Below are positions 213 to 64,000 of a stretch of DNA of 64,000 nt, piece by piece. The stretch covers positions 51,956,001-52,020,000 of the forward strand of contig OY740791.1 in NCBI GenBank assembly GCA_963514005.1, given 5' to 3'. Numbering within the stretch: the first letter of the stretch is position 1; each line of letters opens with the position of its first letter. Made by a program: the position numbers and the translations under genes. Source of the DNA: Raja brachyura (Eukaryota). The notes under the pieces are model-generated. The model was given only the letters and a program-made list of their open reading frames with translations, searched no databases and was not told where the DNA came from.

Positions 213-473
213 CACTGGGTTCCTGATAGTACGGGACTAAAAGCCGGGGCAGGTCTTGATGAAACAAACCGCATCTCCAGTTTCCTCTGCCTCTTTCAGC
301 TTTCTGAATAACCAGACTCAGGGATTTCTCTTCCACAGTCAGTGTCTTTTCTCCAACACTTTTGCCATCGCCATCGATCCAAACCAGTCTCATTGACTCG
401 GTAACGTGAGACACAGAGCAGGTCAGGGTAATGTTGTCTCCCTCATTCACTGCATCAGACGGCTCAGCTGTGA
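213..473 (-). CDS. Gene 1 exon: Ig C2-type domain D4 (WxC type); gene continues beyond the left edge
   Basis: Acceptor tttccacag, donor G|GTAAGT, 261 nt, phase 1-1, open. VTAEPSDAVNEGDNITLTC...LVW...GNWRCGLF: B-strand Cys, C-strand Trp, F-strand WxC. Confidence 0.9.
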
Positions 474-551
474 CTGTGGAAACAAACAGGTTGTTTACAC
501 TTTTAACAATTAATTCATCAGTAAAAACAGTGGCCGCATTCTGTCTCCTAC

Positions 552-893
552 CTTTCACTGTGATTAGATCAATGGTGAGAAATAGATATGTTCCCTCTAA
601 ACATTTGTAAACTCCGGCATCTTGAAACAAAACTGGGACAATTCTCACACTAACATCCTTGCCATTGAAGTGTTTCACTGAGGTCATCAGTCGATTCCTG
701 AAAGTGGCCTTGCTGACATTGATGGGTTGATAGAGTGTTGCTGATGCTATTACTTCCTCCTGGTCTTTTAGGTGACTAAATTTCCAGATCCACACTTCAA
801 AACCCATCTCGTAAGGAAGCCGATAGCAAACCAGCTGGACTTCACTGTGATCTGTGCTGGAGCGGTAAAGTGTGTGACGTTTGCCGTACATGT
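552..893 (-). CDS. Gene 1 exon: Ig V-type domain D3
   Basis: Acceptor tctctgctgtag, donor G|GTAGGA, 342 nt, phase 1-1, open. EVQLVC...WIW...DAGVYKC V-set motifs. Confidence 0.9.
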
Positions 894-1885
894 CTACAGC
901 AGAGAGACAAAAGAATAGAACTCCTTTCAGCATCACAGTTACTGAGGCACAGGGGTAATCAGGTAAAAGTTCCCACACAGATTTTTATTACAATTATTTG
1001 TGTTTTGTTCATCTGATAAGTTTCAAAATGTGACTTCTTGCATGGATTCCACACCATAAACACGTCAGGTTTTTCTAAAAATAACACATATGTCCGGCAC
1101 AATACACATACCAGGCCACCATCTCCCAGACTGTCACTGATCTCATCATCTCTGGCGATCACCCTGCCACAGCCTCCAACCTAATCGTCCACCAGCCCAT
1201 TTATATCTCCTTCTGAAACTCCACAAATAGGGCAGCCCTGGCAGACCCGTTATTTCTGCCTACCCCTTCCCCACATAAATCATTTCTTCCTCTTGTCCAG
1301 TCCCGGAATGGTGAACGTCTTCTGACCATCTCACTCACCCTCATACAGAACCAGCATGCTGCAAACATCAGCCCTACCCCACTCTCTGTCACATTCCTCT
1401 GTCCACCAGCTGCATCCTTCCTCTCTTTGCATCCAATCCCACCCTTCCCTTCATTCCCATAATTCCCTTCACCCCTCTCTCATTCACACCCATTGATTCC
1501 CACCCTTCCTTCTTCCTGGGTCCTGCTCCCAGCTGAATTCTGATCTGAAGCTGGTCTGGAGCAGCTGGAATTACTTCAATCAGAAGAAAAGTCCTGACCC
1601 AAAACATCACCTATTAATGTTTTCCAGTAATGCCCCACCGAGTTACTCTTACTAAACATATAGAATTCATTCTTTCGGTATTGTGTATCTGCCAAACAGA
1701 GATAAACAGGCAGCTGCTCCACAGGGAGACTTTCTGGAAGCTTCTCCCTGAACACTGAAGCATTTTGTACAAGAGAGCTTTTGGCCATGAACTACAATTC
1801 TTCACGGGGTGCACACATGATGTTATAATAAGCACCAATGGTACAAGTGTATGTTCAATATCTAATATGAGGTATTGACACGTAC

Positions 1886-2155
1886 CTGCTATGACATTAA
1901 AATTGCCATTACTTGTCTGAATGATTTTTCCATTTTCCTGCACTTCACAGACATACAGCTTCCCACCCTCCACTGTAACATGTCGGATCATCAGATAGAC
2001 CGTGTTATTCAGGCGGATCTGATCAGTGTTGCTCATGTTCTGCTGGGATGAGTCCATTGGTCTCCAATGAAGACTGACTGTACCTGAGAGTCTGGAGATG
2101 GTGCAGCTGAGTGTGACGTCACTGCCCAGCAGAGGGTGCTGTGGACTTGCCTCAA
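1886..2155 (-). CDS. Gene 1 exon: Ig C2-type domain D2
   Basis: Acceptor tttttcacag, donor G|GTACGT, 270 nt, open. GSDVTLSC...LHW...LYVCEV. Confidence 0.9.
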
Positions 2156-2475
2156 CTGTGAAAATCAGATCAATGAGATTAAGAGAGAGTAGTGGTGTGT
2201 ACAGTCCAATGAATGGGCTCAACCTCACCTCAGCTGAAAACCTAGACATAGAGACTGAAGAACAACTTATTTCCCAGTGGTATCCGACTCTTGAACCAAT
2301 CACCACCTTCACTCACACTTCCTGGTGGTACTGTCACGTGTTCTGGCAGTTATTGCACTTTAGTTTTATTTTGCGTTCATTCAGACAGCTCTGCAAACTC
2401 TGCACCGTTCTGCTGTGTTGCATTTATTGTGTTTATAGTTTCATCCGTCATTAACTTTTACATCATATTAAAATA

Positions 2476-2860
2476 ATGTTTACAAGACAATAAAACACAA
2501 CACAACCCACCACCATAATACAAGACAAACAATAAACTGTTATACAACTATCTTACAATCCTTGTCAAGGATGCATTCAACGCCCCGTGGTGCCCAGCGG
2601 TCCTGGAAATCCCCCAGAGTGTCCATAGTGAGCGCATAGTCCCTCTCCAAGACCACCCAGGCATGGACATAACCGTGGAAAAGCAGCAGGCAGCTGGCTC
2701 GGGCAGAGCCCTCTTCCGCCTAGCGCCGTGACTCGCTGGTGGCCGGCGTGGCCAGGCCAAGGAGAGAAGGTAAAAACTGGCTTTGCGGGGCTGGGAAACT
2801 ATATGGTTGCAGGGTGTGGGAAGCAGACAGCCAGAAGTGATGAAATCAGTAATGGTGTTA
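2476..2860 (-). mobile_element. Tx1/L1-like LINE 3' fragment
   Basis: Minus translation ...LLFHGYVHAWVVLERDYALTMDTLGDFQDRWAPRGVECIL resembles the Tx1 ORF2 C-terminus, followed by a T/G-rich 3' region. Shorter copy at about 56310-56510. Confidence 0.5.
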
Positions 2861-2869
2861 GCGGAGCCG

Positions 2870-4930
2870 GTCCACACCCTCAACAACTTCTCCTTTGACT
2901 CATCTCACTTCCTCCATGTCCAAGGTGTATCTATGGGCATCCGTATTGGCCCCATCTATACCTCCCTCTTTGTTTGGTATATTGAACAATCCCTGTTTCA
3001 GGCATACACTGGCCATATCCCCAAACTCTATCTTCATTATATTGATGCTGCATCATTGCTACCTCCTGCACCCACACAGAACTCATGGACCATCCACTTC
3101 ATCACCAATTTTCATCCTACATTCAAATTTTCTTGGACCATCTCCGACACCTCCTCTCCCTTTCTTGACACCACAGTCTCCATCACAAGAAATACACTTT
3201 TGACTGACGTCAATTATAAACCCACTGACTCCCACAACTATCTCAACTACACTTCTTCCCATCGTGCTTCCTACAAAGACTCTATCCCCTACTCTCAATA
3301 CTTCCTTCTACGCCGCATCTGCGCTCAAGATGAGGTGTTCCATACCACAACATACGAGATGTCCTCATTCTTTAGGCAACGGGGTTCCCCTCTCCCATCA
3401 TTCATGAGGCCCTCACTCGTGTCTCCTCTGTACCCCACAGCTCTGCCCTTGCTCCCCCTCTCCCTAGCCACAACAGAGACAGAGCCCCCCTAGTCCTCAC
3501 CTTACACACCATCAGCCGTCGTACACAACACATAATCCTCCTAAAGTTCCGCCACCACCAACGGGATCTCATCACTAGCCACATTTCCCCGTCTCCACTC
3601 CTTTCTGCCTTCCGCAGAGACTGTTCCCTCTGCAAGTCCCTGGTTATCGCATCCCTTCCCACCTCCTCCCCAGATACCGTCCCCTACAACCGCAGAAGAT
3701 GCAACACCTGTCACTATAACTCCTCCCTTGACTCTGACTAGGGACCCCGACAGTCATTTCAGGTGAGCAGAGGTATTCTTGCACCTCCTCCAACCACATC
3801 CATTGTATCGTTGATCAAGATGTGAAGTCTTTTACATCGGCGAGACCAAAGGCAGACTGGGCGATCATTTAACGGAGCACCATCGCTTAGACCACATGAA
3901 CCAACCCGATCTCCCAGTTGCTGGACACTTCAATTGTCCTACCCATTCCTACGCAGACCTTTCTGTCCTCGTTCTCCTCCATTGTCAGTGTGAAGGGCCT
4001 GTCCTACCAGCATCCGACTCCATGCGATGAGCGCGATCAAACTAGAAGCGGGGGCCGCGCAGAGGTCGGGTGATCCCCTGTACAGGGCCGTTCCCACCAG
4101 CATGCGCCTGCATGTGGCAAGCGCAACCAAACCGGCAGCGAGGGCCGCGCGGTGGTCGGGTGAGTGGCGCAACGCCGCGCAAAGTGAGGCGAACTTGGAG
4201 CGAAGTCTTAAAGTAAGTTCGCCAGGACAGAGAGGGGCACAGAGGCACACATACAGAGGGCCACGGAGCCACACACATAGAGGGTCATGGAGGCACCTAC
4301 AGATAGGTTCACGGAGGCACGATATCGAGCCGGTGTGTCATGCGTTGAGGCGACTGCGAGCCGACAAGCCGTTGCTGCGCGGAATTTTTGAACATAGTCA
4401 GATTTTCGGAGCCCCGCGCGATGTCGGGACGAACTCCGCACAATTCCGCACGGCTCCGGCGATCGAAGTGGGACCGGCCCTGCGACGCCGGACAGCTCAA
4501 GCGACCACGTTAGGTCGCGCTCATCGCACAGTTGCATGCTGGTAGGACAGGCCCTTGAGGCTAATTGCAAATTGGAGGAACAACATCTCATATTTCACTT
4601 GGGCAGCTTACAGCCCAGTGATATGAATATTGGTTTCTCTCACTTCAGGTAGCCCTGCATTCCCTCACTCTCCATCCCTCCCCCACCCTATTCACACTAG
4701 CTTCTCATTTTCACCCTACAAAGAGCTTACAATGGCCTATTTCCTTTATCATCGTCACTTTTTTGTATATCTTTCATTCATTGTTCTTTATCTCTCCACG
4801 TCGCCGTCTATATTTCTCGTTTCCATTATTCCTAACCAGTCTGAAGAAGAAGGATCACAACCCGAAACGTCACCCGTTCCTTCTCTCCAGAGATGCTGCC
4901 TGTCCTGTTGAGTTACTCCAGACACTTTTT
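2870..4930 (+). mobile_element. Degenerate Penelope-like retroelement (RT + GIY-YIG remnants), interrupted by a MITE
   Basis: ORF 2783-3493 gives LNNFSF..QGVSMG..YID..FLD..YKPTDSHNYL (PLE-type RT). Downstream FYIGETKGRLGDH..EH is GIY-YIG-like. Typical tail ctgaagaa..cccgaaacgtcac..gagttactccag. Confidence 0.8.
3994..4555. mobile_element. Non-autonomous DNA transposon (MITE), PIF/Harbinger-like
   Basis: Perfect 20-bp TIRs AGGGCCTGTCCTACCAGCAT (3994-4013; 4536-4555) flanked by a 3-bp TGA duplication. Absent at the paralogous site near 56921. Confidence 0.85.
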
Positions 4931-5450
4931 GTGTCCATTGGCAGTGCTGTGGCTTGCTGGTCACTGTTTAAATGAGGACATTTCTTTTTGTAGCAAGGGA
5001 AGATTGTAATCTTAGTTGCATTATACTGCATTTATTTTTGTAAAGTTTATTATAATAATAAACTATACAATATATTATTTCTATTGACGTCATTATATGG
5101 CTACTAATGATATTATCATTATTTCTATTGTTGTCATTACAAGGCTACAAATGATATAATAATTATTGTATCAGTTATTTCTGAGTTAGTCTTCTCCCAT
5201 TGATTTTGGTTCCTACTGGCAACTGTTGTATTGTGGAATTAATTTGTGGAGCGTATAAAAGTCCCCTGGTGGACATGTTGAGTTACCTGCTACTGCGATT
5301 GTCTGTGATCAAAGAAAAGTGAAGAAACTAACTGTAGCCCCATTATTACCCACAGCCCAGAGTGACTGGAATACTCTCATCAAAACATAGGTTTACACGT
5401 GACATTATTTACAGTGAAACACATTATTGATCCGTGTCTCGCCCACTCAC

Positions 5451-5789
5451 CTTTGATCCCAAATATTTCATATTGTTTCAGGATTTGCTTCATCGGCTGT
5501 GTTTTAGTCAAAGTGAAGAATCCCGCCCATTTAAATGCGTTGTTTTTTATTATCAGATTACAAGTAGTGGCATCCACATCCACCTCCTGGTTCTTGTCTC
5601 TATCTCTCCAGCCATCGCCCCACTGGATGGTCCAATGTTTGTCCACTCTGCTGCCAGTTAACACTGTCTGGATTCCCTGCCCTGAGTGTGGTTCCCATTC
5701 CCAAACAACAATGCCACTCTCAGGATTGTCCGGTCCTTTTAACGTAATGTTGCCTCCATTATCCAAGAAATGAATCAGATTTCTCTTTT
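5451..5789 (-). CDS. Gene 1 exon: N-terminal Ig V-like domain D1 lacking canonical cysteines
   Basis: Acceptor ctttccaacag, donor G|GTGAGT, 339 nt, open. GGNITLKGP...VVWEW...NLIIK...WAGFFTL. Confidence 0.85.
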
Positions 5790-6234
5790 CTGTTGGAAAG
5801 AGGAGCAATGAAAGAATTTAGAACACATTTCCTCCACCCATGTCAGCAATTATTAATTTTGAATTCTATTTATTTCCAGAAAGTTTTGATCTTCCTCAGA
5901 AAAGACCTGAAGTGCTGGAGTAATCAGCGGATCAGGCAGCATCACCGGGGAACACGGATAGGTTACGTTTTGTGTCAGAAGCCTTCATCAGACGCCTGTG
6001 TACCCGAAGGTTCCTTATCTGAAATGTCACTTATCCATATTCACCAGAGGTGCTGTCCGACCTGCTGAGTTACTACAGCACTTTGTGTTTTTCATTCCCT
6101 GTGAAGCATTGACTGAGAAATAGATTGTCGGAAGGTGGATAAGCGAGTTCAGTATTCCGACTGCGCATGCCCAGTTCATAGTTCACTAGCAATAAAGTCG
6201 GAGGTGCTGCATTGTGCGCAGACTTGCGTTTTGT

Positions 6235-6760
6235 CCTTGAGCTGGCGGGGCAGCCCTGGACTTTCAGCCGCTGCCTCCAGTTCGACTCTGCCGGGTTGGT
6301 CAGCAGCCCTCCACCACCACCCCGCTCCCCTTAGTATGACACCGAGATCCTGTTGAAGATGGGCAGCCGCCGGCTGGATGAAGTGGCAGCGGGTACCGTA
6401 GGGGCAGAGCTCAACTCGGCCAGGCCGTGGACGAACTGGCACTTGTCGCCGTAGTGGCCCATCAGGGAGCGGGTTCCTGTGGAGTTGGAGTGGGGTTGGG
6501 CTGGAGTTGGCGCTGGCTGTGGTTCTGTGGGTTCGTTCTGGTAGTGGGCCTGGGGGGCAGAGTCCCGTCAGTCTGGACGTCTCCAGCCGCCCCCCGAGCG
6601 GGGATGGGACATTCGATTGGGGGAGAGTGGTGAGAACGAGGGACGGTCCAGTAGCGGTTATGCAGCGCTTGCATTTTTGCAGCGTTTGTGGTTGCGGGGA
6701 CACGGGTTTGATCCTGGCTGCAAACGAGACGCGGTTCTCCGGATGAGAGCCGGTCCAGTC
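6235..6760 (-). pseudogene. ZFP36/TIS11-family CCCH zinc-finger processed fragment in intron
   Basis: GC-rich island encoding HYGDKCQFVHGLAEL then, frameshifted, LCPYGTRCHFIQ. These match the two TIS11 CCCH fingers with an internal deletion. Confidence 0.7.
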
Positions 6761-7618
6761 TATCCCCCCCCCCCCCCCCCCCCCGGTCTCTAGGGCTTTA
6801 TTTCCTTCGTGTTTCGATAGTTCATTATTCTAGGTAAGGAAATACTGTTTTAAAACTATGTACAAAGATGCAATGTTTTTCTAATTTTTATTGGTTCATG
6901 CCTCCGTGAGTGAGCGAGATCACGAAGATAAATGACACACTTTTTTTTCCTTGAGGGTGGGGGAAATAAAATTAAATGTATGATTTCTATAACTTTCAAT
7001 AGACTTTAAGGAGTTATTTGGACGGATTTAAATTGCTGCAACTACAGCAAGAGCTACAAGTATAGATTTTCTTCCCATATTTTTTAACCCCCTTCTTCGC
7101 TAAAAAAAATATTCAAAGCTTTGACTTTCCATGACATTAAATCTTCCAGCTTCATATCTTGGAACTTTGAATCAGCCATGACAAATAGAAGCTAAAAAAA
7201 AGACAAAAAAATCGGACCAAACGTATACTCACTGTATCTATAGCGCTGAGATCTATTTACTGTTAAAGCTTACGACCTTTGACAAATCCCATGATTCCTT
7301 GCGTTTTTCGGAATACCGAACTAGCTTATTGTCTGAGCTGCAGAAGGGAACTGTGCGGCAGCGTGCAGAATCATTGCGGGTGATTCTTGGGCAGCGAATT
7401 CTGCAACAAGCTGACAGGTCGGAATCTCTCTCTGAGGGGAGGCAGCTGATGGGAGGGGTGCAGAAATGGAGCTCCAACAAGAATGGCATGGATTTGTGAT
7501 GCAGCAGCACATTCAGGGATGTGGAGAGGAAAGTGAGATTGACAATGGGGTGCGGGTTTACAAGGACAATGATAAAGTAAAGCAAGGTGATTGTGACCGG
7601 TGAAGAGAAAGCACTTAC

Positions 7619-7706
7619 TCTGTGTGGAAACAGATCGAAGCAGGAAAAGAAAGACTCCGAACATCAAACCAGTTGGCAAACTGCTGCAGAGAAACCTCGG
7701 CCTCAT
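7619..7706 (-). CDS. Gene 1 leader (signal peptide) exon
   Basis: ATG at 7706, MRPRFLCSSLPTGLMFGVFLFLLRSVSTQ, phase-1 donor A|GTAAGT. Acceptor tttcccacag 12 nt upstream of the ATG implies a non-coding exon 1. Confidence 0.85.
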
Positions 7707-17572: not shown

Positions 17573-17590
17573 GACCTGTTTCCACACAGA
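17573..17590 (+). pseudogene. Gene 2: remnant 3' end of leader exon
   Basis: gacctgtttccacacaga|gtaaatgc and the following intron match the gene 1/3 leader end. The 5' part, including the ATG, is replaced by the CR1 tail. Confidence 0.7.
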
Positions 17591-18217
17591 GTAAATGCTT
17601 TCTCTTCGCCGGTCACGATTACCATGCATTACGTTATCATTGTCCGTGTAAAGCCGCACCCCATTGTCAATCTCGCCCCTCCCATCAAATCCCTCTCCTT
17701 CTCCTGATCCGGCACGTTCCTTATCATGTCAGAAATGGCCTCCTGTGAGCTTGTTGCAGAGTTAAACTCTCCCTCCTCATCCCGCTCAGCCTCAGCAGCC
17801 TTTGACACGGTTGTCCACACCATCCTTCCCCAACACCTCCCCACCACAGTCCAGGCTGGTGGAACTGCCCTTGACTTATCGATCCAGTTGCAGCCTAAGA
17901 ACCAAGTGCAATGTCTTCAATTCACGCTCCGGCAAAGTTCCTTCAAAACCGGGTGGAGCTCCTCCACTACCCCAACACAAACCCATATCCCCACCTCCGT
18001 CTCCCTCCCACACACTCACTCCTCTCATGTGATGAAATATCCCTGGATCAGGCCAAGTTATTCCAGACGGACATCTCTTCACAAACCGAGTCTTCCTCGC
18101 TGGGATTTCCAAGGAAGATCACAACTGTCTGTAATTAAATTAAGTTAAAAATTAATGATTACAGGTATCGGGTGGGGGAAATGTGTTTTAAATCTTCATT
18201 GTTCGTATTTACAACAG

Positions 18218-18559
18218 GGAATAGAAGTCGAATGTATTCCTTGGATAACGCAGACGACATTGTGCTAAACGGACCGGACAATCCTGAGAAAGACACTGTT
18301 GTTGTCTGGGAATGGAAACCACACTCAGAGAAGGAAATCGAAAAATTGACGACTTTTAGAAGAAAGACGAGCTATTGTATCAAACAGAAGGCCGCTGGCG
18401 AGAGTAAAGTGAACATGTACCCGGAGATGCATGTTAATTACGGTACCCTTGATATGACAATTTATAAACCCACATTTAAATGGGCGGGATTTTTCACTTT
18501 TGCTCAAACAGAACCGAGAAAGCAAATCCTGAAACAATATGAAATATTTTAGATCAAAG
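18218..18559 (+). pseudogene. Gene 2: D1 V-like exon lacking canonical cysteines, disabled
   Basis: DIVLNGPDNPE...VVWEWKPHS...FKWAGFFTF..KQYEIF. TAG at 18550-18552, and donor GTGAGT mutated to TTGAGT. Confidence 0.85.
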
Positions 18560-19253
18560 TTGAGTGGGTGCGATAAGGATCAATAATGTTTAATTTATCT
18601 CTGTAAATATTGTCACCTATAATGATGATAGATGGGGTGAAATGTGAGGCTTTTTCCACCCGGTGAAAAGAGAATCTCACAGTAAAACAACTGGGGAAGT
18701 GTTTATGTTCATTGATTCTGAAATGATCAGCAGGAGTGAAAATAGTTTGATGACTTCACTGGGAACAGCAAATCAATGAATCTACCCGCGGCAAATACCA
18801 TGGTCTTCTCGCCGGCACATGGTAAGGTGGTCGCTGCAAGGTGGTATGAAACCAATGCTCCATGCAGTGGCCCCAGGGTGATTCTGCTGCTTAATGTTAC
18901 CCTATGACCAGGTCAATGGAAGTCCATCGTCAGTGGAACTTGGGCTTTGCCATAGAGTTCACCTTTTGAGAGCAATCAGATAAACCTAGAAGGAGTGGCA
19001 ATAGATCCATTTTCAACAGTTTGTGAATATTTTAAACAGAGCATGTGTAAATACAACAAAGCCTGAATGTTGCCGGTTCCACTTGCAGTCCCACGGTGAA
19101 CAATCGGCATTTTGCTGTGTCAATGTGACCTGCCACGTGTGTCAGGAGTTGTGAGAGCACTGGGAGAGAAGTTGTTCTGACTTTCAACTGGGCTGTCAGC
19201 ATTGAGCCCAGTCATTGGACTGTACACACCACTACTCTCCCTGAATTTCATTG

Positions 19254-19990
19254 AAGGTAGACAAAAACGCTGGAGAAACTCAGCGGGTGAGGCAGCATCT
19301 ATGGATCGAAGGAAATAGGCAACGTTTCGGCCGAAACCTTTCTTCAGACTGATATGATGGTGGGAGGGTGGGGGGAGGGAAGAAGAAAGGAAGAGGTGGA
19401 GCCAGAGGGATGAGGGAGAGCCGAGAAGGGGAGGAGATAGTAAGGACTACCTGAAATTAGAGAATTCAAGGTCGAGCAGCGGATGCAATAGATAAGGTTG
19501 GGAGAGGTGCAGGCGAACCTCATCTATTGCATCCGCGACTCTACATTGTCTTCTCTAATTGCTGAGGACTGCTTTGGTCCTTGAATCAATGGGGGATGTA
19601 AAGCGACAAGTGTAGCATTTCTTGCGGTTGCAAGAGAAAGTGCCAGGTTAGGGGGTAGTACGGGTGGGAAGGGACGAATTGACCAGGAAGTTACAGAGGG
19701 ATCGGTCCCATGCGGAAAGCAGACAGGGAAGGAGATGGGAAGATGTGGCAAGTGGTGGGGAAAATGACGGAGAATTATTTGTTGTATTGAAGAGACCCTG
19801 GTGGGAGCCTCATCTATGGTAGAAGAGGGGAACCCCTGTACACTGAAGAATGAGGACATCTCCGATGCCCTGGTGTGGAACACTTCATCCTGGGGTGAAC
19901 ACCTCATTCTTCAGGGAATGGGGGTTCGCATCTTCTAACATAGATGAGGCTCTCACCAGGGTCTCTTCTATACCCTGTGACGCTACTCTC
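19254..19990 (-). mobile_element. Penelope-like fragments with tail, at the position of the missing gene 2 D2 exon
   Basis: SPQDEVFHTRASEMSSFF matches the PLE at about 3320. Intron sequence that precedes D2 in genes 1/3 is present at about 19130-19253 and stops at this element. Confidence 0.7.
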
Positions 19991-19994
19991 GCTA

Positions 19995-22250
19995 GAGTAA
20001 CTATGATATACATGAGAGAAAAAAGAAAATTCATTCTCTTTTTGGTGAAATAATCTCCAGACTTCTAACATTCCAGAGTCAAGTAAAAAAGAATTGATAA
20101 AACTAGCTGATTTATTTGGAAGCACATGATCAGATGCAGATCTGTCCATCGAGGGGTTCAAACAGCAGTTAAAATCTCCACTCATTATTTAAAAATGTTC
20201 ATTTAAATTAGGAAAGGATGCAATTAACTGTTTAAAAAAACTCAGGGTGATCAATATTAGGTGCATAAACATTCACCATAGCAACTTTTTGGTTATGAAG
20301 AACACCAGTAATCACCAAAAATCTACCATATGGATCAGAAATGGTTTCATAATGAACAAACAGACTTGAGGAGTCAATAAAAATAGAGACTCCTTTCACC
20401 TTAGCCTGTGAATTTGAATGAAACTGCTGTCCTCTCCAAAACTTTAAAAATTGATGATTATCGTCTTGCCTTACATGAGTTTCCTGAACAAAGATAATCT
20501 GAGCATTTATTCTACGAATAACTTTTTTTTTTTTAATCCTCTAATGGGATGGTTCAAACCATTCACATTCCCTAAAAAGAAGTTAATAACTTTATCCATA
20601 TTGTTTGTAAAAATCATGTGGAATGTAAAGGGTTAATTTCTTAAAGCATAACAGTTCATGATACTGGAAAGAGAAAAATCTAGAGTGGAGCCAGAAGTGA
20701 CAACATTTCAGACATTTTGGTAGTTCAAATTCTGCACAGATAGAAAAAAAACTGAGTCAGAAGCGAAAGACCCCCCACCCTCACCCATGCAAAGCCCGAA
20801 ACTGATCAGTAGACAGTCAGTACACTACCTAATCCCTTCTCTACCCCCATCTCTCCAAACGACAGCACCCAAAGTAAGAAGAAGGCATATTGACCACTCA
20901 ATAGCCAAAACAAAATTAATGTTATGGTTAAGAAGTGCATGTTCTCAGTGAAACACAAGAGCTACTTCATATTATTTATCCAAGGTCAAAATATGAAAAA
21001 CAAGAACTGCATTCACTTTGTTTGTCTGAAGACAGGGGGAAAAAAATGCCTTCAATTTAAAAAAATAGAAAAGCTAACAAAGAAAATCATAAAAATTAAT
21101 ATATAATACCATTAAATTAACAGTATATTAGAGAAGGTAAAAGTTGTTGTGTGATACTATCATACTAAAATTCTAAAAGTTAAATTAAAAAACAACTCCT
21201 CCAATTAAAATCTTTATCATTACAAAACGATATATTATCAAAATAGTAACAGTAAATCTCCAATTATAACTTGATTAGCTATCAGTAGCTCCCGGTTGTG
21301 GCTTCACCCCCATAAGCCTCCAGAAAGCTGGAAGCGTCTTGAGGATTGTTAAAAAATCAATTGTAACCATTAAAGAGTTGTATACGCAGTCTAGCTGGAT
21401 AAAGTAAGGTGGGGCACAACTGTTTCTTAAACAACTCAGACATCACATTGTGGACAGACTTTCTTAATTCTAAAAGCTCATGGCTGTAATCAGGAACAAA
21501 CCAAAACTTGCATCCTTCAATTTCAACTATGCCCAACTTTTTTGCTGCCTGGAGGATATTCTCCTTCATCTGCAAGGAATGAAACCGAACGATCAAATGT
21601 CTCGGTTTATCTTGGGGACCAGATTTCTTCCTGATCCTGTGTGCCTTATATCCAAAATTGGAAGATTTTCATAGTGCTCGATGTTGAAAGTCTCCTACAT
21701 CATTTTAGAAGCATATTTTATAACATTATCTCCTTTTTGAACTTCCAGCAAACCAACAATTCACAATTCAGTCGACGGCTTCTGTTTTCCAGATCCATAT
21801 TTTTAAACTTGTATTGCTGGAGTGCTCGAGTATTTTCATTCATTTTCCATTCCACTTTTTCAATCTTCAAATCTCTCTCCTGGCCCAAGGTTAGCAAGTT
21901 ATCAATTTGTTCCTTCTGTTCACGAGATTCATCTTGTAACATAATCCGCTTGTCTTGAACTTCCTTCAATTTGCTCGAAATTCCTGTCACCATTTCTTCC
22001 AAACTGCAAAATCTTGTTTTCAGTTCATTTTTCATTTCTTCATTCATTTTCGACATTGCTTCTAAGATACCAGAATCAGAAGCAGAAGCTGTGCCTCCCC
22101 CACGCTCCTTCCTTGGAGAAGCTCTTTTAACTCTTGTCTCCATCATTTACATGATTAAAGCGTATAAAAGTGTTATCAACAGTTTAAGAAAAGTTAGACC
22201 GTGCCTTGAAATCAAGTAATAACAAGTGACATTGAAAGAGTGGTAAGCAA
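19995..22250 (-). mobile_element. L1-clade LINE 5' portion (ORF1 + APE endonuclease), decayed
   Basis: ORF1: coiled coil, DLENRSRR, IVRFH..PDYS..LLYPARLRI. ORF2 endonuclease: NVNGLNHP, QETH, GDFNCCLNPSMDRS. Confidence 0.85.
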
Positions 22251-22501
22251 AAGATCAAAGTTAAGGGAGCAAACAAATTTGCAACCTTTACAGCATGCTG
22301 CAACAATAAAGGTAATCTAATCTAAAGACTGTAAAGATCTGATGAGTTTTGGTGCGGCATTCATGAAGGATGTTACATTTGAAACTTGATCAGCTTGATC
22401 AGAGAAAACACCATTAATGTTTATTAAAATGCAGATGAGAATCTCTCTATGGCAAGTATCTGTAATACTGAAAGGAGTTATCTTCAGTCTCTCTGATTCA
22501 G

Positions 22502-22882
22502 CTTTATATAACAGGAGATATACGCTTTACCGCTCCAGCACAGATCACAGTGAACTTCACCTGGTTTGTTCTCATAGTTATATCTATTCCACTGCTGAGT
22601 GCACCTGGACATCTCGTCATCATTAACAACAGCAGAAAGTAATAGCATCTGCGATACACTCTCAGCCCATCAATGTCAACAGGACCTACTTCCGGAATCA
22701 ATTGATGAACTCAGTGAAACGCTTCAATGGCAAGGATTTCAGAGAAAAGACACTGACTGGGGAAGAGAAATCACTGAGTCTGGTTATTCAGAAAGCGGAG
22801 AGAGGCAGACTGAACTGGAGATGTGGTTTGTTTCATCAAGACCTGTCCCGGCTTTTTGTTCGGTACTGTCAGGAGCCCCGTG
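22502..22882 (+). pseudogene. Gene 2: fused D3/D4 exon with stop
   Basis: YTLYRSSTDHSELHLVC...; TAA at 22624-22626. D3 (…FNGKDF) joined in frame to D4 (EKTLTGEEKSLSL…NWRCGLF). Donor G|GTAAGC. Confidence 0.85.
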
Positions 22883-23548
22883 GTAAGCGACTCAGGGTTT
22901 GTTCTTCATACTTACACATGATTGAGTTTTGATGTCCTGAAATTTGAAAGTGGAATATGGTCTTCTGGTTTGTGAGTGGTCTAACTCTGTTGTGACCAAT
23001 TACGTCTCACATTTCAAATAAAACATACTGAACCCCACTTCTCCCCTCCCACCCTTCATTGTGCACGCATTTCTCTCACCACCCAGGTACCCTATTCCCT
23101 TCCTCTTTCCACTCATCTCCCACCCCTTCCAATTGTCCAATTTCCTTTCATGTTCTTGCTCCACTTCCGCCCATATCCTTCCCTATTTTACAGATCTGGC
23201 AACCTTTGGTCTCCATTTCGCCCCTTGCTTTTGTCATTAGTTCCATCCATCTACTAATCACCATACCTCACCTGTATCCACCTATCACTCACCATGCTTT
23301 GTCTCATGCCTACTTCTCTTCACCAGCTTTTTCTGTCCTATTCCATCAGTTTGAAATGCCTGACCCATTGAGTTTCTCCAGCACTTTGCATTTGGTCAAC
23401 ATTCCAGATCTGCATTTTCTTGTGTCTGCATGGAAGGATACCCACTGGTCAGCGTTGGTGGATTGCTGCAGAGGGCCTGTTTCCATGCTGATCCAGGATG
23501 ATGAATTATAACGTACAACTTCGTAAAGATTCCCGTCTTTTCCTACAG

Positions 23549-37366: not shown

Positions 37367-37474
37367 TTAATTCTGATCTGTCAGATCAGGGTTAGAATTC
37401 AGGGTCTGCATTGCAACAGCTTCTTTTGAATCATTTGTGGCATTTCCTGGAAATTCCTGTGAATTTCTGCTGCT
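37367..37474 (-). CDS. Gene 3 terminal exon: short cytoplasmic tail without Tyr
   Basis: gtttgatacag|AGC; SSRNSQEFPGNATNDSKEAVAMQTLNSNPDLTDQN*. Conserved in gene 2. Confidence 0.75.
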   Translation of the reverse strand, partial: SSRNSQEFPGNATNDSKEAVAMQTLNSNPDLTDQN

Positions 37475-38494: not shown

Positions 38495-38598
38495 CCTGTT
38501 CATCCTCCACGAGCAGCAAATTAGTCCAAGAGCAACGGCCAGTTTAATCGACAAGTAGCCCAGAACTGTGATGATCCCAATGTCTGTAAGCGCTCTCA
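38495..38598 (-). CDS. Gene 3 transmembrane exon with central Lys
   Basis: Phase 1-0, 104 nt; VRALTDIGIITVLGYLSIKLAVALGLICCSWRMNR. Confidence 0.85.
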
Positions 38599-40309: not shown

Positions 40310-40690
40310 CTACTCCTGTAGTAACTGAAGGCTGCTTTTGGTCCTTGTGAAATCTGCAGTTCGAATTTTGTTTGGAAATGTCCGTAATATAAATTATTTA
40401 CTATAGTCAAGGTACAACTATGGTACCGGATGTGAGATTAGGCAGATGTGAAGCCTATTGAAAAAATAATCACTGAAATCATCAAACCTGGAATTGTGTG
40501 CAGTGGAAAAGTTCAGATTCACATGTAGAGATCTCACCCAAGAGAACAATAAACATAAATTTAATCACCTTTTAAAGTGAATGATTGTGTATAAGAACCC
40601 TTTAAAAATAGTTAATTCAGCAATTATTTTTCATTGTTAAATTGACATGTAACATACAGTATGCATGTAGTTTATTGTTTGGCACTGATT

Positions 40691-43600
40691 TCAGTGTGAT
40701 GCTTGCAGTATGTGGGAGGTCAAGGACACTGGTGGTCCCTGTGGCTGCTACAAATGTGAGAAGTGCTTCCAGGTACAGCTCCTGAAGGACCGTGTTGGGG
40801 AACTGGAGAAGCAAGTGGATGACCTCAGGTTCGTCCGAGAAACTGAGTTGTTCCTCGACGAGTCCTACAATGAGAATGCTACACCTAAGGTACTGGAAGA
40901 GAGAAAGTGGGCGACGGTGAGAAAAGGAGGGAAACGTGGAAGGCAAAGGTCCCCGGGTGTTGTACCTCTTGTGAACAGTTTCACCCACTTAGAAGTTGTC
41001 GGGACAGAAGACGTTAAAACACTGTGCAGCAGACTGGCTTGTGAAGCAAAAAGGGCTGTTGAGCCAAAACCAAAGAGGCCAACGTCAGGCAACGCCATTG
41101 TAGTTGGAGACTCCATTGTGAGAGGTACGGACAGGGGTATCTGCGGTAACAAAAGGGATTCGAGGATGTTTTGCTGCCTTCCTGGTGCCAGGATCCAGGA
41201 TGTCACGGACAGAGTGCAGAAAATCCTCAAGGACGAAGGTGAACAGCCAGAAGTGGTAGTGCATGTTGGCACAAATGATGTCGGAAAGAAGGGGATCACT
41301 ATTCTGCACTGTGACTTTAGAGAGCTCGGAAAAATGCTGAAAAGCAGGACCTCCAGGGTTGGTATCTCCGGTTTGCTTCCAGTTCCTCGTGCTGGCGAGA
41401 GCAGGAACAGGGAGATACGGGACATGAATGTGTGGCTTACTAACTGGTGCAGGGGGCCGGATCTTAGATCACGGGGATTTGTTTTGGAGTAAGGGGGAAC
41501 TGTCCAAAAGGGACGGATTGCATCTTAACTGGTGGGGGACCGGCATTCTGGCAGGCAGGTTTGCCACTGCTACACGGATGGTTTTAAACTGAATAAGGGG
41601 GGTGGGGTGTCAAATGAGATAGTTGAGGATGGAGTTAAAGGGAAAGCGAGTAAAGGGAGGGTTAATTACCCCAGAATTAACGGGAAAGAAAGCTCACAAA
41701 GGGATAGGAGAATATGGCCAAGTGTAATAGGGATCGATGTGAAAGGTTAGATGCGTAAGGAATTAAAAGTATTGTATATGAATGCGCGAAGTATAAGAAG
41801 TAAAGTAGATGAGCTTGAGGCTCAGTTAGCGGTTGGTGGATGTGACATTGTCAAGTCAAGTCACGTATATTTATATAGCAATTTAAAAAACAACTCTCGT
41901 TGACCAAAGTGCTTGACATTTGTTATAAGAGTAGTATACACAAGCAGGCTACATACATATATACAAATACCCCTCACTCAGAGGACGTCAGGAAAGGCTT
42001 GGGAGAACAGATACGTTTCTAGACTAGACTTAAAGGGGTCGATGGAGGGGGCAGTTCTAATGGGGAGGGGGATGCTGTTCCACATTCTAGGAGCTGTGAC
42101 CACAAAGGCGTGGTCGCCCCTGAGCTTATGCCTAGACTGCGGGACATTCAGCAGCCCCAAGTCGGCCGATCTGAGGGACCTGGAGGTGGTGTAGTGGGTG
42201 AGAAGACTTTTAATGTAGGTGGGTGCAAGCCCATTGAGGGCTTTGTTGACAAAGAGGAGGGTCTTGAAATTCATTCGGAACCACACAGGGAGCCAGTGGA
42301 GAGAGGCCAGGATCAGGGTGATATGGTCCCTTTTACGGGTGCCCGTCAGGAGTCTCGCTGCGGCGTTTTGGACCAGTTGCAGGCTGGACAGGGTAGATTG
42401 GCTGATGCCAGTGTAAAGGGAATTGCAGTAATCTAGGCGGGAGGAGATAAATGTATTGTGGGGATTACTGAGACGTGGCTACAGGAGGATCGGGCCTGGG
42501 AACTTAATATTCAGGGTTATACATCCTATAGAAAGGACAGGCAGGTGGGCAGAGGAGGGGGTGTAGCTCTGCTGGTGAGGGATGGAATTCAGTCCCTTGC
42601 AAGGGAAGACATACGGACTGATGAGGTAGAGTCACTGTGGATTGAGTTGAGGAATTGTACAGGCAAGAAGACACTAATTGGTGTTATTTACAGACCCCAA
42701 AATAGTAGCCTGGATGTAGGGTGTAAGTTGCAGCAGGAGTTAAAACTGGCATGTAACAAAGGTAATGCCACTGTGGTGATAGGGGATTTCAATATGCAGT
42801 TAGTCTGGGAAAATCAGGTTGGTTCAGGACCCCAAGAAAGGGAGTTTGTAGAATGCCTCCGAGATGGATTCTTAGAGCAGCTTGTAATGGAGCAGACCAG
42901 AGAAAAGGCAATTCTGGATTTAGTGTTGTCCAATGAACCAGATATGACAAGAGAACTCAAGGCAAAGGATCCGCTTAGAGGCAGTGATCTCAATATGATT
43001 AGTTTTAATCTGCAATTTGAGAAGGAGAAAGTTAAATCAGAAGTGGCAGTGATACAGTTGAACAAAGGGGACTATGAAGGCATGAGGGAGGAGCTGGCCA
43101 AAGTAGACTGGAAAGGGATCATAGCAGAAATGACGGTGGAACAGCAATGGCAGGAATTTCTGGGCATAATCTGGAAGACGCAGGATAATTTCATTCCAAA
43201 AAGGAAGAAAGATTCTAAGGGGATTAGGAGGCAACCGTGGCTGACAAGAGAGGTTAGTGATAGAATAAAGCTAAAAGAAAAGATGTATAACACAGCAAAG
43301 AGTAGCCGGAAGCCAGAAGATTGGGAAACTTTCATAGGACATCAGAAGGAAACAAAACGGGCTGAAAAGATGAAGTATGAATGGAAGCTGGCCAGGAATA
43401 TAAAGAAGGACAGTAAAAGCTTCTTTAGATATGTTAAGTGAAAAAGAGTACCCAAAGTCAAATGTGGGTCCCATGAAGGCAGACACGGGTGAAATAATTA
43501 TGGGCAACAAGGAAATGGCAGAAGAGTTGAATAGGTACTTCGGATCTGTCTTCACTAAGGAGGACACAAACAATCTCCCAGATGTACTGGAGGACAGAAG

Positions 43601-45708: not shown

Positions 45709-45978
45709 CGTTCACCTTAAGATAGATTGAATTGCTCAGCTTGAGGCTGTTTCGATGAAACAATCCACATGTCCATTTCCTTCTCACTGTCTCAGCTTTT
45801 GGAATAATCAGCTGCAAAGACCACACTTTCTCCCTTGACTCCTTTAAAAATTTGTCTCCCACCATTTTGTCATCACTGTTGATCCAAGTGAGTCTCATTG
45901 ATTCAGCAACACCAGACACAGAGCAGGTCAGGGTAACGCTGTCTCCCTCAGTCACTGCATCAGATGGTTCAGATGTAA
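45709..45978 (-). CDS. Gene 3 exon D8, C2-type (WxC)
   Basis: 270 nt, phase 1-1, open. EGDSVTLTC..LTW..RKWTCGLF. Confidence 0.9.
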
Positions 45979-46772: not shown

Positions 46773-47111
46773 CTGTAACTCTGATTAGTTCAATGTTCAC
46801 ATATTTATTTGATCCCGTGGAACATGTGTAAACTCCGGCATCTGCAAACTGCACGGGGACAATCCTCACATGGAAATTCTTGCCATATACATTTCCCTCT
46901 ATGGTTTCCAGTCGATTCTCAAAGTAGCTCCTGTCTACATGTATCGGCTCAGACCCGAGAGAAGAAGCTATTTCCTTAGTTTGATTCTGGAAATGTTGTG
47001 ATCTCCAAGTCCATTTGGTTTCACTGAGCTCAGGAGAAGCTTCACAAATCAGGTCGAGTTCACTGTGATCTGTGACTGAGCGATAAACTGTGTACGTCTT
47101 GTTATGTAAAT
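46773..47111 (-). CDS. Gene 3 exon D7, V-type
   Basis: 339 nt, phase 1-1, open (translated by hand; not in the ORF track). ELDLICE..KWTW..ADAGVYTC. Confidence 0.9.
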
Positions 47112-47903: not shown

Positions 47904-48167
47904 CCTGATCCACTTCAACATTGATGTCTCCAGTGAGAACAATGGAGCCATTTTCCTGCACTTCCCATGTGTACAGATTGGGATTTCCTGCTCCAGCATG
48001 TTGGACCATCAGATAGATGATGTTATTCAGACGGATCTGATCAGCGTTGTTCCTCCTGTTCTGCTGAGATGGTTTCCAGTGAAGACTGAAGGTATCAGGG
48101 AGTCTGGAGATGGTACAGCTGAGGGTGATGTCACTGCCCATTACAGGCCTCGGTGAGTCTGCCTCAA
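47904..48167 (-). CDS. Gene 3 exon D6, C2-type (F-strand Cys replaced by Trp)
   Basis: 264 nt, open. GSDITLSC..LHW..LYTWEV. Confidence 0.88.
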
Positions 48168-49373: not shown

Positions 49374-49712
49374 CTTTGATCCCAAATAGTTCCCACTGTC
49401 TCAGGATTTTCCCACCGGGCTGTGTCTGATTCCAGGTGAACAGTCCTGCAACTTGAAAGGTGGGCTTCCTGATCCTCAGATTAAGGGTACCCCAGTCCGC
49501 ACGCATCCTCTGGGAAAGGCCTGGTATTTGATTGTACTCATCACTCCATTGTACGGCCCACCGCTGATCTTCTCTTTGAAAAGTGGCCAATCGCTTTGTG
49601 GTTTGTTGCCCTGAGTGTGGCCTCCATTCCAAGTTAATGGTGCCATTTCCAGGACTGTCTGGTCCTTTCAGTACAAAATAGCCTTCCTGGTGGAAAAAGT
49701 AAATAGTAGTCC
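49374..49712 (-). CDS. Gene 3 exon D5, cysteine-free V-like domain
   Basis: ttctggcag| acceptor, G|GTATGT donor, 339 nt, open. YFVLKGPDSP..LEWRPHSG..LNLRIRKP..VAGLFTW. Confidence 0.88.
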
Positions 49713-50442: not shown

Positions 50443-50662
50443 CACCGGCTGGGTCACTGTGTGACAGCAGTCTCACCGGCTGGGTCACTGTGTGACAGCA
50501 GCCTCACCGGCTGGGTCACTGTGTGACAGCAGCCTCACCGGCTGGGTCACTGTGTGACAGCGGTCTCACCGGCTGGGTCACTGTGTGACAGCAGTCTCAC
50601 CGGCTGGGTCACTGTGTGACAGCAGCCTCACCGGCTGGGTCACTGTGTGACAGCAGCCTCAC
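50443..50662 (+). repeat. 31-bp minisatellite x7
   Basis: CACCGGCTGGGTCACTGTGTGACAGCAGYCT head-to-tail, no spacers. Confidence 0.95.
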
Positions 50663-53903: not shown

Positions 53904-54164
53904 CAGTGGGTTCCTGATAGTACGGGACTAAAAGCCGGGGCAGGTCTTGATGAAACAAACCACATCTCCAGTTCCCTCTGCCCCTCTCAGCTTTCTGAAT
54001 AACCAGACTCAGGGATTTCTCTTCCACAGTCAGTGTCTTTTCTCCAACACTTTTGCCATCACCATTGATCCAAACCAGTCTCATTGACTCGGTACCGTGA
54101 GACACAGAGCAGGTCAGGGTAATGTTGTCTCCCTCAGTCACTGCATCAGACGGCTCAGCTGTGA
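53904..54164 (-). CDS. Gene 3 exon D4, C2-type (WxC)
   Basis: 261 nt, phase 1-1, open; paralog of 213-473. Confidence 0.9.
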
Positions 54165-54242
54165 CTGTGGAAACAAGCAGGTTGTTTACACTTTTAACAA
54201 TTAATTCATCAGTAAAAACAGTGGCCGCATTCTGTCTCCTAC

Positions 54243-54587
54243 CTTTCACTGTGATTAGATCAATGGTGAGAAATAGATATGTTCCCGTTGAACATTTGTA
54301 AACTCCGGCATCTTGAAACAAAACTGGGACAATTCTCACACTAAAATCCTCGCCATTTAAGTGTTTCACTGAGGTCATCAGTCGATTCCTGAAAGTGGCC
54401 TTGCTAACATTGATGGGCTGAGAGAGTGTTGCTGATGCTATTACTTCCTCATGGTCTTTTAGGCCACTAAATGTCCAGGTCCACACTTCAGAATCCTCCT
54501 CGGAACCAGGAAGCCGATAGCAAACCAGCTGGACTTCACTGTGATCTGTGCTGGAGCGGTAAAGTGTGTGATGTTTGCCGTACATGT
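54243..54587 (-). CDS. Gene 3 exon D3, V-type
   Basis: 345 nt, open. EVQLVC..WTW..DAGVYKC. Confidence 0.9.
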
Positions 54588-55579: not shown

Positions 55580-55849
55580 CTTCAGAGAGACTAAAATTGC
55601 CGTTACTTATCTGAATGATTTTTCCGTTTTCCTGCACTTCACAGACATACAGCTTCCCATCCTCCACTGTAACATGTCGAACCATCAGGTAGACCGTGTT
55701 CTTCAGGCGGATCTGATCAGTGTTGCTCATGTTCAGCTGGGATGAGTCCATTGGTCTCCACTGAAGACTGACTGCATCTGAGAGTCTGGAGATGGTGCAG
55801 CTGATTGTGACGTCACTGCCCAGCAGAGGGCGCTGTGGACTTGCCTCAA
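55580..55849 (-). CDS. Gene 3 exon D2, C2-type
   Basis: 270 nt, open, donor G|GTAAGT. Confidence 0.9.
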
Positions 55850-56509
55850 CTGTGAAAAACAGATCAATGAGATTCAGAGTGAGTAGTGGTGTGTACAGTC
55901 CAATGACTGGGCTCAATCTCACCTCAGCTGAAAACCTAGACATAAAGACTGAAGGACAACTTCTTTCCCAGTGGTTTCCGACTCTTGAACCAATCATCAC
56001 CTTCACTCACACTTCCTGGTGGCGCTGTCACGTGTTCTTGCAGTTATTGCACTTTAGTTTTATTTTGCGTTCATTCAGACAGCTCTGCAAACTCTGCACC
56101 GTTCTGCTGTGTTGCATTTATTGTGTTTATAGTTTTATCCGTCATTAACTTTTACTCAATGAGTTTCATGTGAACAAAGAATGTAATTGCATCCTGGTGT
56201 TTATGACAATAAACTCATCTGAACCAGTATTGTTCTACACAGTTACGTTGTTGCTGTTTGACACTTTTTTAAATGTTTTTAAATCAAAATAATTAATTCA
56301 AATATTAAAATAATATTTACAAGACAATAAAACACAACACAACCCACCACCATAATACAAGACAAACAATAAACTATTATACAACTATCTTACAATCCTT
56401 GTCAAGGATGTATTCAACGCCCCGTGGTGCCCAGCGGTCCTGGAAATCCCCCAGAGTGCCCATAGTGAGCGCATAGTTCCTCTCCAAGACCACCCAGGCA
56501 CGGACATAA

Positions 56510-57806: not shown

Positions 57807-58145
57807 CTTTGATCCCAAATATTTCATATTGTTTCAGGATTTGCTTCATCGGCTGTGTTTTAGTCAAAGTGAAGAATCCCGCCCATTTAAATGCGTTGTT
57901 TTTTATTATCAGATTACAAGTAGTGGCATCCACATCCACCTCCTGGTTCTTGTCTCTATCTCTCCAACCATCGCCCCACTGGATGGTCCAATGTTTGTCC
58001 ACTCTGCTGCCAGTTAACACTGTCTGGATTCCCTGCCCTGAGTGTGGTTCCCATTCCCAAACAACAATGCCACTCCCAGGATTGTCCGGTCCTTTTAACA
58101 TAATGTTGCCTCCATTATCCAAGAAATGAATCAGATTTCTCTTTT
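57807..58145 (-). CDS. Gene 3 exon D1, V-like domain lacking canonical cysteines
   Basis: 339 nt, open; differs from gene 1 D1 by 2 aa. Confidence 0.88.
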
Positions 58146-61148: not shown

Positions 61149-61236
61149 TCTGTGTGGAAACAGATCGAAGCAGGAAACCAAAGACACCGAACATCAAACC
61201 AGCTGTCAAACTGCTGCAGAGAAACTTCGGCCTCAT
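61149..61236 (-). CDS. Gene 3 leader (signal peptide) exon
   Basis: ATG at 61236, MRPKFLCSSLTAGLMFGVFGFLLRSVSTQ, donor A|GTAAGT. Confidence 0.85.
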
Positions 61237-63896: not shown

Positions 63897-64000
63897 ATCA
63901 ATGATTTGGGAGAAGGGATTCAAAGTAACATTAGCAAATTTGCAGATGACACAAAGCTGGGTGGCAGTGTGAACTGTGAGGAGGATGCTATGAGAATGCA
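63897..64000 (+). mobile_element. CR1 RT fragment running off the window
   Basis: INDLGEGIQSNISKFADDTKLGGSVNCEED. Confidence 0.85.

What the first reader, a model, noticed from the sequence alone, without database searches (positions are those of the whole stretch)
38495..38598. Central transmembrane lysine plus signal-less tail: predicted adaptor coupling
Seen: IGIITVLGYLSI-K-LAVALGLI is identical in genes 2 and 3 (Lys codons 29006-29008 and 38543-38545); tails are short and Tyr-free. Established: a mid-membrane Lys pairs with the Asp of DAP12/TYROBP in KIR2DS, TREM and NKp44. Inference: this is the activating member of a paired-receptor system, and ITIM-bearing siblings may lie nearby.
Basis: partly seen in the sequence, partly recalled or inferred. 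Interest (0 to 1): 0.75.

Follow-up and report, generated by a model that had tools for sequence, protein, structure and literature searches.

The report
Skate CD4-like activating paired immune receptor
This exon is the membrane anchor of an intact skate immune receptor with eight Ig domains built on a CD4/LAG-3-like plan, and its buried lysine marks it as the probable 'on' switch of an apparently undescribed family of on/off receptor pairs shared by sharks, rays and sturgeon-grade fishes.

Summary
'Gene 3' is the 3' half of one intact 11-exon, 908-residue gene (61236-37367, minus strand): leader, two V-C2-V-C2 cassettes, lysine-bearing transmembrane exon and a tyrosine-free tail of about 40 residues. 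'Gene 2' is a pseudogene, so the identity of the two copies says nothing about selection.

Relatives carry the argument. Of 128 cartilaginous-fish homologues, 26 have this Y-L-x-x-K-L helix and no tail motif; 58 have a neutral helix and ITIM-like tails. Both types occur in 14 of 22 taxa. Ectodomains of the two types are intermixed on the tree (same-species pairs up to 99% identical), while the transmembrane types form separate clades. G-Y-L-x-V-K recurs in sturgeon, paddlefish and bowfin relatives. A predicted cassette structure matches CD4 and LAG-3 best, yet the protein is neither.

Best reading: the activating member of an old, CD4-related paired-receptor family, signalling through an acidic adaptor, most likely DAP12. 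Adaptor binding, ligand and expression are untested. No ITIM sibling lies inside the window. Ten literature searches found no description of the family.

The parts
61149..61236 (-). Leader (signal peptide) exon of the intact gene
   Evidence: ATG to GT donor, phase 1; 72-83% identical to leaders of skate homologues
57807..58145 (-). D1, V-type Ig domain without the canonical Cys pair
   Evidence: AG/GT exon; no Pfam hit; V-like strand order in the model of a relative
55580..55849 (-). D2, C2-type Ig domain (YxC)
54243..54587 (-). D3, V-set Ig domain
   Evidence: Pfam V-set E 3e-6
53904..54164 (-). D4, C2-type Ig domain with the CD4/LAG-3-type WxC motif
49374..49712 (-).
   Evidence: phase-1 exon in frame with D4; homologues span the D4-D5 junction
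47904..48167 (-). D6, C2-type domain with the F-strand Cys replaced by Trp, as in several second-cassette homologues
46773..47111 (-). D7, V-set Ig domain
   Evidence: Pfam V-set E 1.6e-6; query
45709..45978 (-). D8, C2-type domain with WxC
38495..38598 (-). Transmembrane exon with Tyr853 and central Lys857 (codon 38543-38545): the finding
37367..37474 (-). Cytoplasmic exon, 35 residues and stop, no Tyr
   Evidence: 68-71% identical to tails of Lys-type skate proteins
17573..29744 (+). Inverted pseudogene copy: leader remnant, D1 with stop and lost donor, no D2, D3-D4 fused by deletion with a stop, D5 with two stops and lost donor, open D6-D8 and TM exon (28953-29056), tail exon with a stop
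213..7706 (-). Third paralogue ('gene 1'): intact leader and D1-D4; the rest, including its TM type, lies left of the window

Best explanation
The gene encodes a type I leukocyte receptor with eight Ig domains (two CD4/LAG-3-like V-C2-V-C2 cassettes) and no signalling tail. In the ER its central transmembrane Lys is buried against the Asp pair of a dimeric adaptor, most likely DAP12/TYROBP. This allows surface expression, and ligand binding then signals through the adaptor's ITAM. Sister genes of the cluster carry near-identical ectodomains on a neutral helix with two or three ITIM-like motifs, so one ligand can trigger opposing signals. Ectodomain exons are repeatedly exchanged between the two gene types, while the Lys-type TM and tail exons persist as one old lineage. 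Shown here: gene structure, central Lys, motif-free tail, family composition, discordant trees, CD4-like architecture. Inferred: adaptor binding, choice of DAP12, leukocyte expression, activation, ligand sharing.
For: Intact 908-residue frame with canonical AG/GT at all ten introns. A hydropathy-only scan found 17 database proteins with a mid-helix Lys, all with Y-L-x-x-K-L; the motif scan found 26 of 128, none with ITIM-like or YxxL/I/M tail motifs. Of 58 neutral ITIM-type proteins, 50 have two or more ITIM-like motifs. Both types occur in 14 of 22 taxa. On 77 rows, the class label needs 20 changes on the tree of the membrane-proximal V-C2 pair but 2 on the TM-segment tree, where the Lys type is one clade at SH-aLRT 100. 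Same-species Lys/ITIM pairs are 86-99% identical in that segment in sawshark, sevengill shark, catshark, stingrays and devil ray; some carry distinct gene numbers, e.g. Hypanus LOC132405177/176 at 97% and Scyliorhinus LOC119965407/406 at 87%. This is the pattern described for mammalian paired receptors (PMC3210942, abstract). G-Y-L-x-V-K is kept in Huso, Acipenser, Polyodon and Amia relatives, across a split of about 450 million years (PMC6238376, abstract in listing). All known DAP12 partners have a central Lys and need nothing else, whereas zeta/gamma partners use an Arg in the upper half (PMC13107469).
Against: No adaptor was tested. No paper that I could open confirms DAP12 in cartilaginous fish. 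There is no transcript evidence for this gene. Most homologues are automatic gene models, and tandem clusters can yield chimeric models. No ITIM sibling lies in the window. The same-species ITIM protein was closer than any other-genus Lys protein in only 15 of 24 cases, four of them near ties, and four skate Lys proteins are clear exceptions at 49-53%. The ectodomain tree keeps some clustering by class (20 changes against a shuffled mean of 25; as low in 0 of 200 shuffles). The TM tree includes the columns that define the classes. Eight taxa yielded no Lys type. The conserved G-Y-L flank is more than DAP12 partners are said to need.
Confidence: 0.75

Rival explanations
1. It is an activating receptor, but its partner is not DAP12. 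The Lys pairs with a CD3 heterodimer, DAP10 or zeta/FcR-gamma, with the invariant Tyr one turn above it supplying a second contact, as a TCR-beta Tyr does.
For: Tyr at Lys-4 is present in all 17 hydropathy-selected Lys proteins and in sturgeon and bowfin relatives. DAP12 partners share no TM feature beyond the Lys, while CD3 dimers also use Lys plus DxxxT and a conserved TCR-beta Tyr points into the zeta polar network (PMC13107469).
Against: Every non-TCR central-Lys receptor named in the sections read uses DAP12; DAP10 and zeta/gamma partners use Arg. From recall, not from a call, the Tyr-Lys spacing in TCR-beta is longer.
Confidence: 0.15
2. This particular gene is silent, retained in the ER or a non-signalling decoy, on its way to the pseudogene state of its neighbour.
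For: The nearest paralogue is a pseudogene. The D8-TM intron is 7.1 kb and full of retroelement fragments. The end of D8 departs from homologues (52-64% identity). Two of 26 database Lys-type proteins have two cassettes by the motif count.
Against: All 11 exons are open, in phase and canonically spliced over 24 kb, while the sister copy has gathered at least five stops. A sawfish protein has the same eight-Ig, Lys-TM plan (P0011).
Confidence: 0.07
3. One reading: two separate four-domain genes, a secreted or otherwise anchored upstream gene and a downstream Lys-type gene with its own leader.
For: Four-domain members are common in the family (22 of 26 Lys-type proteins have one cassette motif). 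The D4-D5 intron is 4.2 kb.
Against: The leader exon matches only at 61.2 kb, 7.7 kb and a remnant at 17.6 kb, never between D4 and D5. There is no TM exon in that intron. The same D4-D5 order recurs in the + copy, 660 bases apart. 56 of 128 homologues in 21 taxa passed a filter for spanning the junction; three of them are short proteins where the alignment merely overruns.
Confidence: 0.03

Closest known systems
CD4 / LAG-3 family
   Same: V-C2-V-C2 cassette; WxC in the fourth domain; continuous strand across V-C2 junctions in the model (E124-138, E331-346). Top structural matches are LAG-3 8dgg (E 3.9e-19), LAG-3 7tzg and CD4 1wio; CD4 takes ranks 1-4 at Z 15.7-17.3, and CD4 D3-D4 aligns over 171 of 177 residues at 2.6 A.
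   Different: Multigene; cassette repeated up to four times; D1 lacks the Cys pair; D2 has YxC, not WxC; no Cx(C/H) or FxxL tail motif; TM Lys or classical ITIMs instead. Shark CD4 and LAG-3 are separate, described genes (PMC10768021). Identity to the solved structures is 13-20%.
DAP12-coupled paired receptors (KIR2DS/KIR2DL, TREM, CD300, PILR, NKG2C/NKG2A)
   Same: Central Lys with a motif-free tail beside ITIM siblings; ectodomain homogenisation between opposing members.
   Different: Unrelated ectodomain scaffold; conserved G-Y-L before the Lys; adaptor binding untested.
Fish paired-receptor families DICP and NITR
   Same: Clustered genes with inhibitory, charged-TM and TM-less forms; head-to-tail fusion into doubled ectodomains is also described for bowfin DICPs (bioRxiv 2021.06.11.448072, passages).
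   Different: DICPs have D1/D2 domains with four conserved Cys and, in bowfin, a TM Arg; here D1 has no conserved Cys and the unit is V-C2-V-C2.
Skate MDIRs (modular domain immune-type receptors)
   Same: Multigene activating/inhibitory Ig receptors of a skate (PMC3031540, passages).
   Different: MDIRs are described as CD300/TREM/pIgR-like; no homologue or 55 bears such a name, and the model matches CD4/LAG-3 better than pIgR. No direct sequence comparison was possible.
Teleost G6F-like
   Same: Clusters named g6f-like rank 2 and 4 by language-model features (0.96, level with CD4); four Ig domains related to CD4/LAG-3 (recalled).
   Different: G6F-like carries its own ITAM (title of Ohashi 2010 in a reference list); this tail has no Tyr.

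Membership tests
CD4/LAG-3 family | V-C2-V-C2 ectodomain | tested here: met
   Exon sizes, Pfam, model and fold matches; present twice
CD4/LAG-3 family | WxC in strand F of both D2 and D4 | tested here: not met
   D4/D8 have WxC (W in 35 of 36 aligned relatives); D2 has YxC (Y in 33 of 36)
CD4 | Cx(C/H) LCK-binding tail motif | tested here: not met
   Absent from the tail; only juxtamembrane Cys-Cys
LAG-3 | (F/Y)xxL(D/E) tail motif | tested here: not met
   Absent from the tail
CD4/LAG-3 family | Conserved genomic neighbourhood | not testable with these tools
   The window holds only this gene family and repeats
CD4/LAG-3 family | Binding to MHC class II | not testable with these tools
   Needs a binding assay
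DAP12-associated activating receptors | Centrally placed TM lysine | tested here: met
   Lys857 is equidistant from Asp844 and Arg870; criterion from PMC13107469
DAP12-associated activating receptors | Tail without signalling motifs | tested here: met
   No Tyr in the window protein; no ITIM-like or YxxL/I/M in 26 of 26 Lys-type homologues
DAP12-associated activating receptors | Physical assembly with DAP12 | not testable with these tools
   No tool supplied an adaptor sequence; no complex prediction was run
Paired receptors | Inhibitory sibling with a closely similar ectodomain in the same genome | tested here: inconclusive
   Met for relatives (14 of 22 taxa, up to 99%); for this genome none in the window; nearest ITIM protein is from another skate, 73% over D7-D8 and 81-88% over D1, D6, D7
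Paired receptors | Shared ligand and opposite signals | not testable with these tools
   Experimental
DICP | D1/D2 domains with four conserved cysteines | tested here: not met
   No D1 column has Cys in more than 3 of 36 rows; definition
MDIR | CD300/TREM/pIgR-like V domains | tested here: inconclusive
   No such names among hits; pIgR ranks below CD4/LAG-3; MDIR sequences not compared directly
G6F-like | Cytoplasmic ITAM | tested here: not met
   No Tyr in the tail

The most novel reading that the evidence does not exclude
This is an unnamed third branch of the CD4/LAG-3 superfamily that was already a germline-encoded paired-receptor system in the ancestor of jawed vertebrates. It would be the functional counterpart of KIR/LILR in sharks and rays, reading MHC or MHC-like ligands with CD4-like rods of 4 to 16 domains, and its conserved G-Y-L-x-x-K helix would specify a particular adaptor contact, possibly CD3/zeta rather than DAP12.
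Probability: 0.25. Interest if true: 0.85.

Novelty: new variant of a known kind. Interest (0 to 1): 0.6.

Why it matters
The germline receptors that switch shark and ray NK-like and myeloid cells on and off are poorly known (my own knowledge; the searches found little). Here is a large, fast-evolving cluster with both signs, built on the CD4/LAG-3 scaffold, whose activating helix survives in sturgeons and bowfin. It gives concrete candidates for missing-self or pathogen recognition in the oldest lineage with adaptive immunity. It extends ectodomain homogenisation of paired receptors back to cartilaginous fish, and it bears on how CD4 and LAG-3 arose from a wider family. The Lys-plus-short-tail logic itself is textbook.

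Tried and rejected
Two-copy identity as evidence of selection: rejected.

An ITIM or neutral TM exon in the window: 71 homologue C-termini by tblastn, a profile and a motif scan over six frames gave nothing credible; a hydropathy scan of all frames gave 41 segments, none other resembling the family's TM.

C-to-W in D6 as a sign of decay: rejected, shared by intact homologues.

Lys-type tail derived from the ITIM tail, suggested by alignment A1: not supported, best E 0.019 among 58 tails.

A Thr four residues after the Lys as a requirement (my recall): position +4 is Ala/Gly in 26 of 27, but the review places DxxxT on the adaptor, so this is no objection.

The TM exon against solved structures: 0 hits at E 10. 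The Atlas on D5 alone gave bacterial Cap15 hits with a low recognition score, discarded as noise.

Literature: ten searches found no paper on this family and none confirming DAP12 in cartilaginous fish. Most subscription papers are outside the library. The original MDIR and G6F-like papers were not read, and the main supplementary PDF of the elephant shark genome paper was too large to open; it may discuss these genes, since a nurse-shark member is deposited as 'obscurin-like' (P0038).

Accession-level look-up of cluster members could not be made, so for pairs without printed gene numbers (sawshark, sevengill shark, Hemitrygon) it stays open whether they are separate genes or isoforms.

Full report
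Observation. The 21-residue string is in both places, with Lys codons at 29006-29008 (+) and 38543-38545 (-). The finding's coordinates are exactly one exon, AG...GT, entered in phase 1 and left in phase 0. A downstream exon at 37474-37367 adds 35 residues and a stop. If the donor is read through, the protein stops four residues later; neither tail has a Tyr. The identity of the two copies is weak evidence. They are about 90% identical in most exons, the 63 core bases have no synonymous change, and a run that long occurs in 44% of shuffles of the alignment. A 112-base run at the end of D8 is unusual (P about 0.0025) and, with 133 of 134 identical bases around the TM exon, may mark recent conversion.

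Gene structure. The window holds three paralogues, not four or five genes. On the minus strand, eleven exons from 61236 to 37367 join, with canonical sites at all ten introns, into 908 codons without a stop: leader, D1-D8, TM, tail. The two four-domain cassettes are 48% identical. No leader lies between D4 and D5, and homologues span that junction (56 of 128 passed the filter, three spuriously). The + strand copy has lost most of its leader and all of D2, has stops in D1, D3, D5 (two) and the tail exon, has lost two donors, and has a deletion fusing D3 to D4. 'Gene 1' is an intact front half running off the left edge. The closest named relatives are from skates (Leucoraja, Amblyraja, Rhinoraja; 76-88% for D7), so the window is inferred to be a skate.

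The family. Two searches gave 128 named cartilaginous-fish proteins from 22 taxa, nearly all 'uncharacterized'; two loach rows at E 1e-8 to 1e-5 were dropped before counting. Classes: 58 neutral TM with ITIM-like tail, 26 Lys-type, 6 Arg-type, 7 neutral without ITIM, 4 with ITIM tail but no TM, 27 without TM, many of them partial models. The Lys class was picked by a motif, so its invariant columns are circular; the hydropathy-only scan had found 17 of them, all with Y-L-x-x-K-L. None of the 26 has a Tyr motif in the tail; 50 of the 58 ITIM-type tails have two or more. Both types occur in 14 of 22 taxa. Proteins have one to four cassettes.

Paired evolution. On 77 rows (14 of 91 skipped as partial or lacking the anchor motif), the membrane-proximal V-C2 pair needs 20 class changes, and starred branches force at least 12 for the Lys class. 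The TM segment of the same rows needs 2, though it contains the trait itself. Same-species opposing pairs reach 99, 98, 97, 96, 93 and 92%. Against this, only 15 of 24 Lys proteins were closer to a same-species ITIM protein than to an other-genus Lys protein, with four near ties, and four skate proteins were clear exceptions. The window protein is itself mosaic: D1, D5 and D6 are nearest to ITIM-type or neutral skate proteins (85-88%), D7 to a TM-less skate model and then ITIM types, while the TM and tail are nearest to Lys types. This fits ligand-domain homogenisation as described for mammalian pairs (PMC3210942, abstract only).

Depth and fold. A profile search of 1.84 billion representatives found full-length relatives at 26-33% identity, with ITIM-like, motif-free or Lys-type C-termini. 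Five with G-Y-L-x-V-K were named as Huso, two Acipenser, Polyodon and Amia; most others stayed unnamed. A model of a four-domain Lys-type relative (P0061, pLDDT 81.7) has four Ig domains and one TM helix. It matches LAG-3 and CD4 first by Foldseek and CD4 first by VIA-align (Z 17.3 at rmsd 12.5 over 321 residues; Z 13.3 at rmsd 2.6 for the two-domain unit). High whole-chain rmsd reflects hinge angles, and many Ig proteins score Z 12-14, so this shows shared architecture, not orthology. Sequence search of solved structures is weak (PD-L1, CD276, CD4 at E 1e-6 to 1e-5). WxC is present in D4 only. The CD4 and LAG-3 tail motifs are absent (criteria from PMC10768021, sections 3.1 part 1, 3.2, 3.6 and passages).

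Mechanism. By PMC13107469 (section 2.4.1 read whole, other passages), all DAP12 partners have a central Lys, which is sufficient for assembly; zeta/gamma and DAP10 partners use Arg; and unpaired charged helices are held or degraded in the ER. The window protein fits the DAP12 class. I put adaptor-dependent activation at about 0.9 given expression, and DAP12 as the partner at about 0.75 overall. The invariant Tyr one turn above the Lys is unexplained by that model and keeps a CD3/zeta partner in play. No call tested binding, and I could not confirm DAP12 in cartilaginous fish from accessible papers.

Comparison and novelty. It works like KIR2DS, TREM or activating DICP/NITR, but it is not a member of those families, nor CD4, LAG-3 or G6F-like; MDIR membership is unlikely but was not directly tested. 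Other papers seen: bioRxiv 2021.06.11.448072, PMC3031540, PMC3964593 and PMC10751288 as passages; the table archive of PMC3964593 and the supplements of PMC11372145 by term search. Ten searches found no description of the family, within a library that lacks most subscription papers. Verdict: a real, intact, probably activating receptor; a known signalling logic on an apparently undescribed CD4-related scaffold of early-vertebrate age. Interest 0.6.

Noticed in passing
P0005, P0022, P0024, P0025, P0047, P0112 (Mobula, Hemitrygon): A second charged class: an Arg in the upper half of an otherwise ITIM-type helix, with a truncated tail. It looks like an independent origin of an activating form, possibly FcR-gamma/zeta-coupled.
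   Followed up: partly
P0001, P0002, P0003, P0006: Shark members of 1309-1720 residues with three or four cassettes (12-16 Ig domains) and ITIM tails; some may be fused gene models.
   Followed up: no
window 57807-58145 and 49374-49712: D1/D5 are V-type domains with no conserved Cys and no Pfam match, rich in Trp; the likely ligand-binding tips.
   Followed up: partly
window 38519-38513 region and residues 866-867: Juxtamembrane Cys-Cys, common in Lys-type members, is a possible palmitoylation site (inference).
   Followed up: no
window 1-10106 vs 53690-63899: A 10-kb direct duplication at 85-97% identity carrying leader to D4; D3 differs most in its B-C region, suggesting diversification.
   Followed up: no
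window 27295-27406 and 28965-29098: Long identical tracts shared by the pseudogene and the intact gene; possible recent gene conversion.
   Followed up: partly
window 16188-17397, 19900-22150, 33405-33734, 40689-45150, 59688-60543: Fragments resembling CR1/L2-type, L1-type and LTR retroelements (recognised from translations, from recall, not searched), several inside introns of the family.
   Followed up: no
window 11335-11684, 11893-12375, 50443-50662, 31005-31221: Tandem repeats of 92, 74 and 31 bases, and a 217-base assembly gap beside a CT-rich repeat.
   Followed up: no
P0147, P0149, P0152, P0161, P0167, P0177, P0181: Unnamed distant relatives (26-33% identity) with ITIM-like tails; several lack D1. 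They suggest the family persists widely in bony fish.
   Followed up: partly
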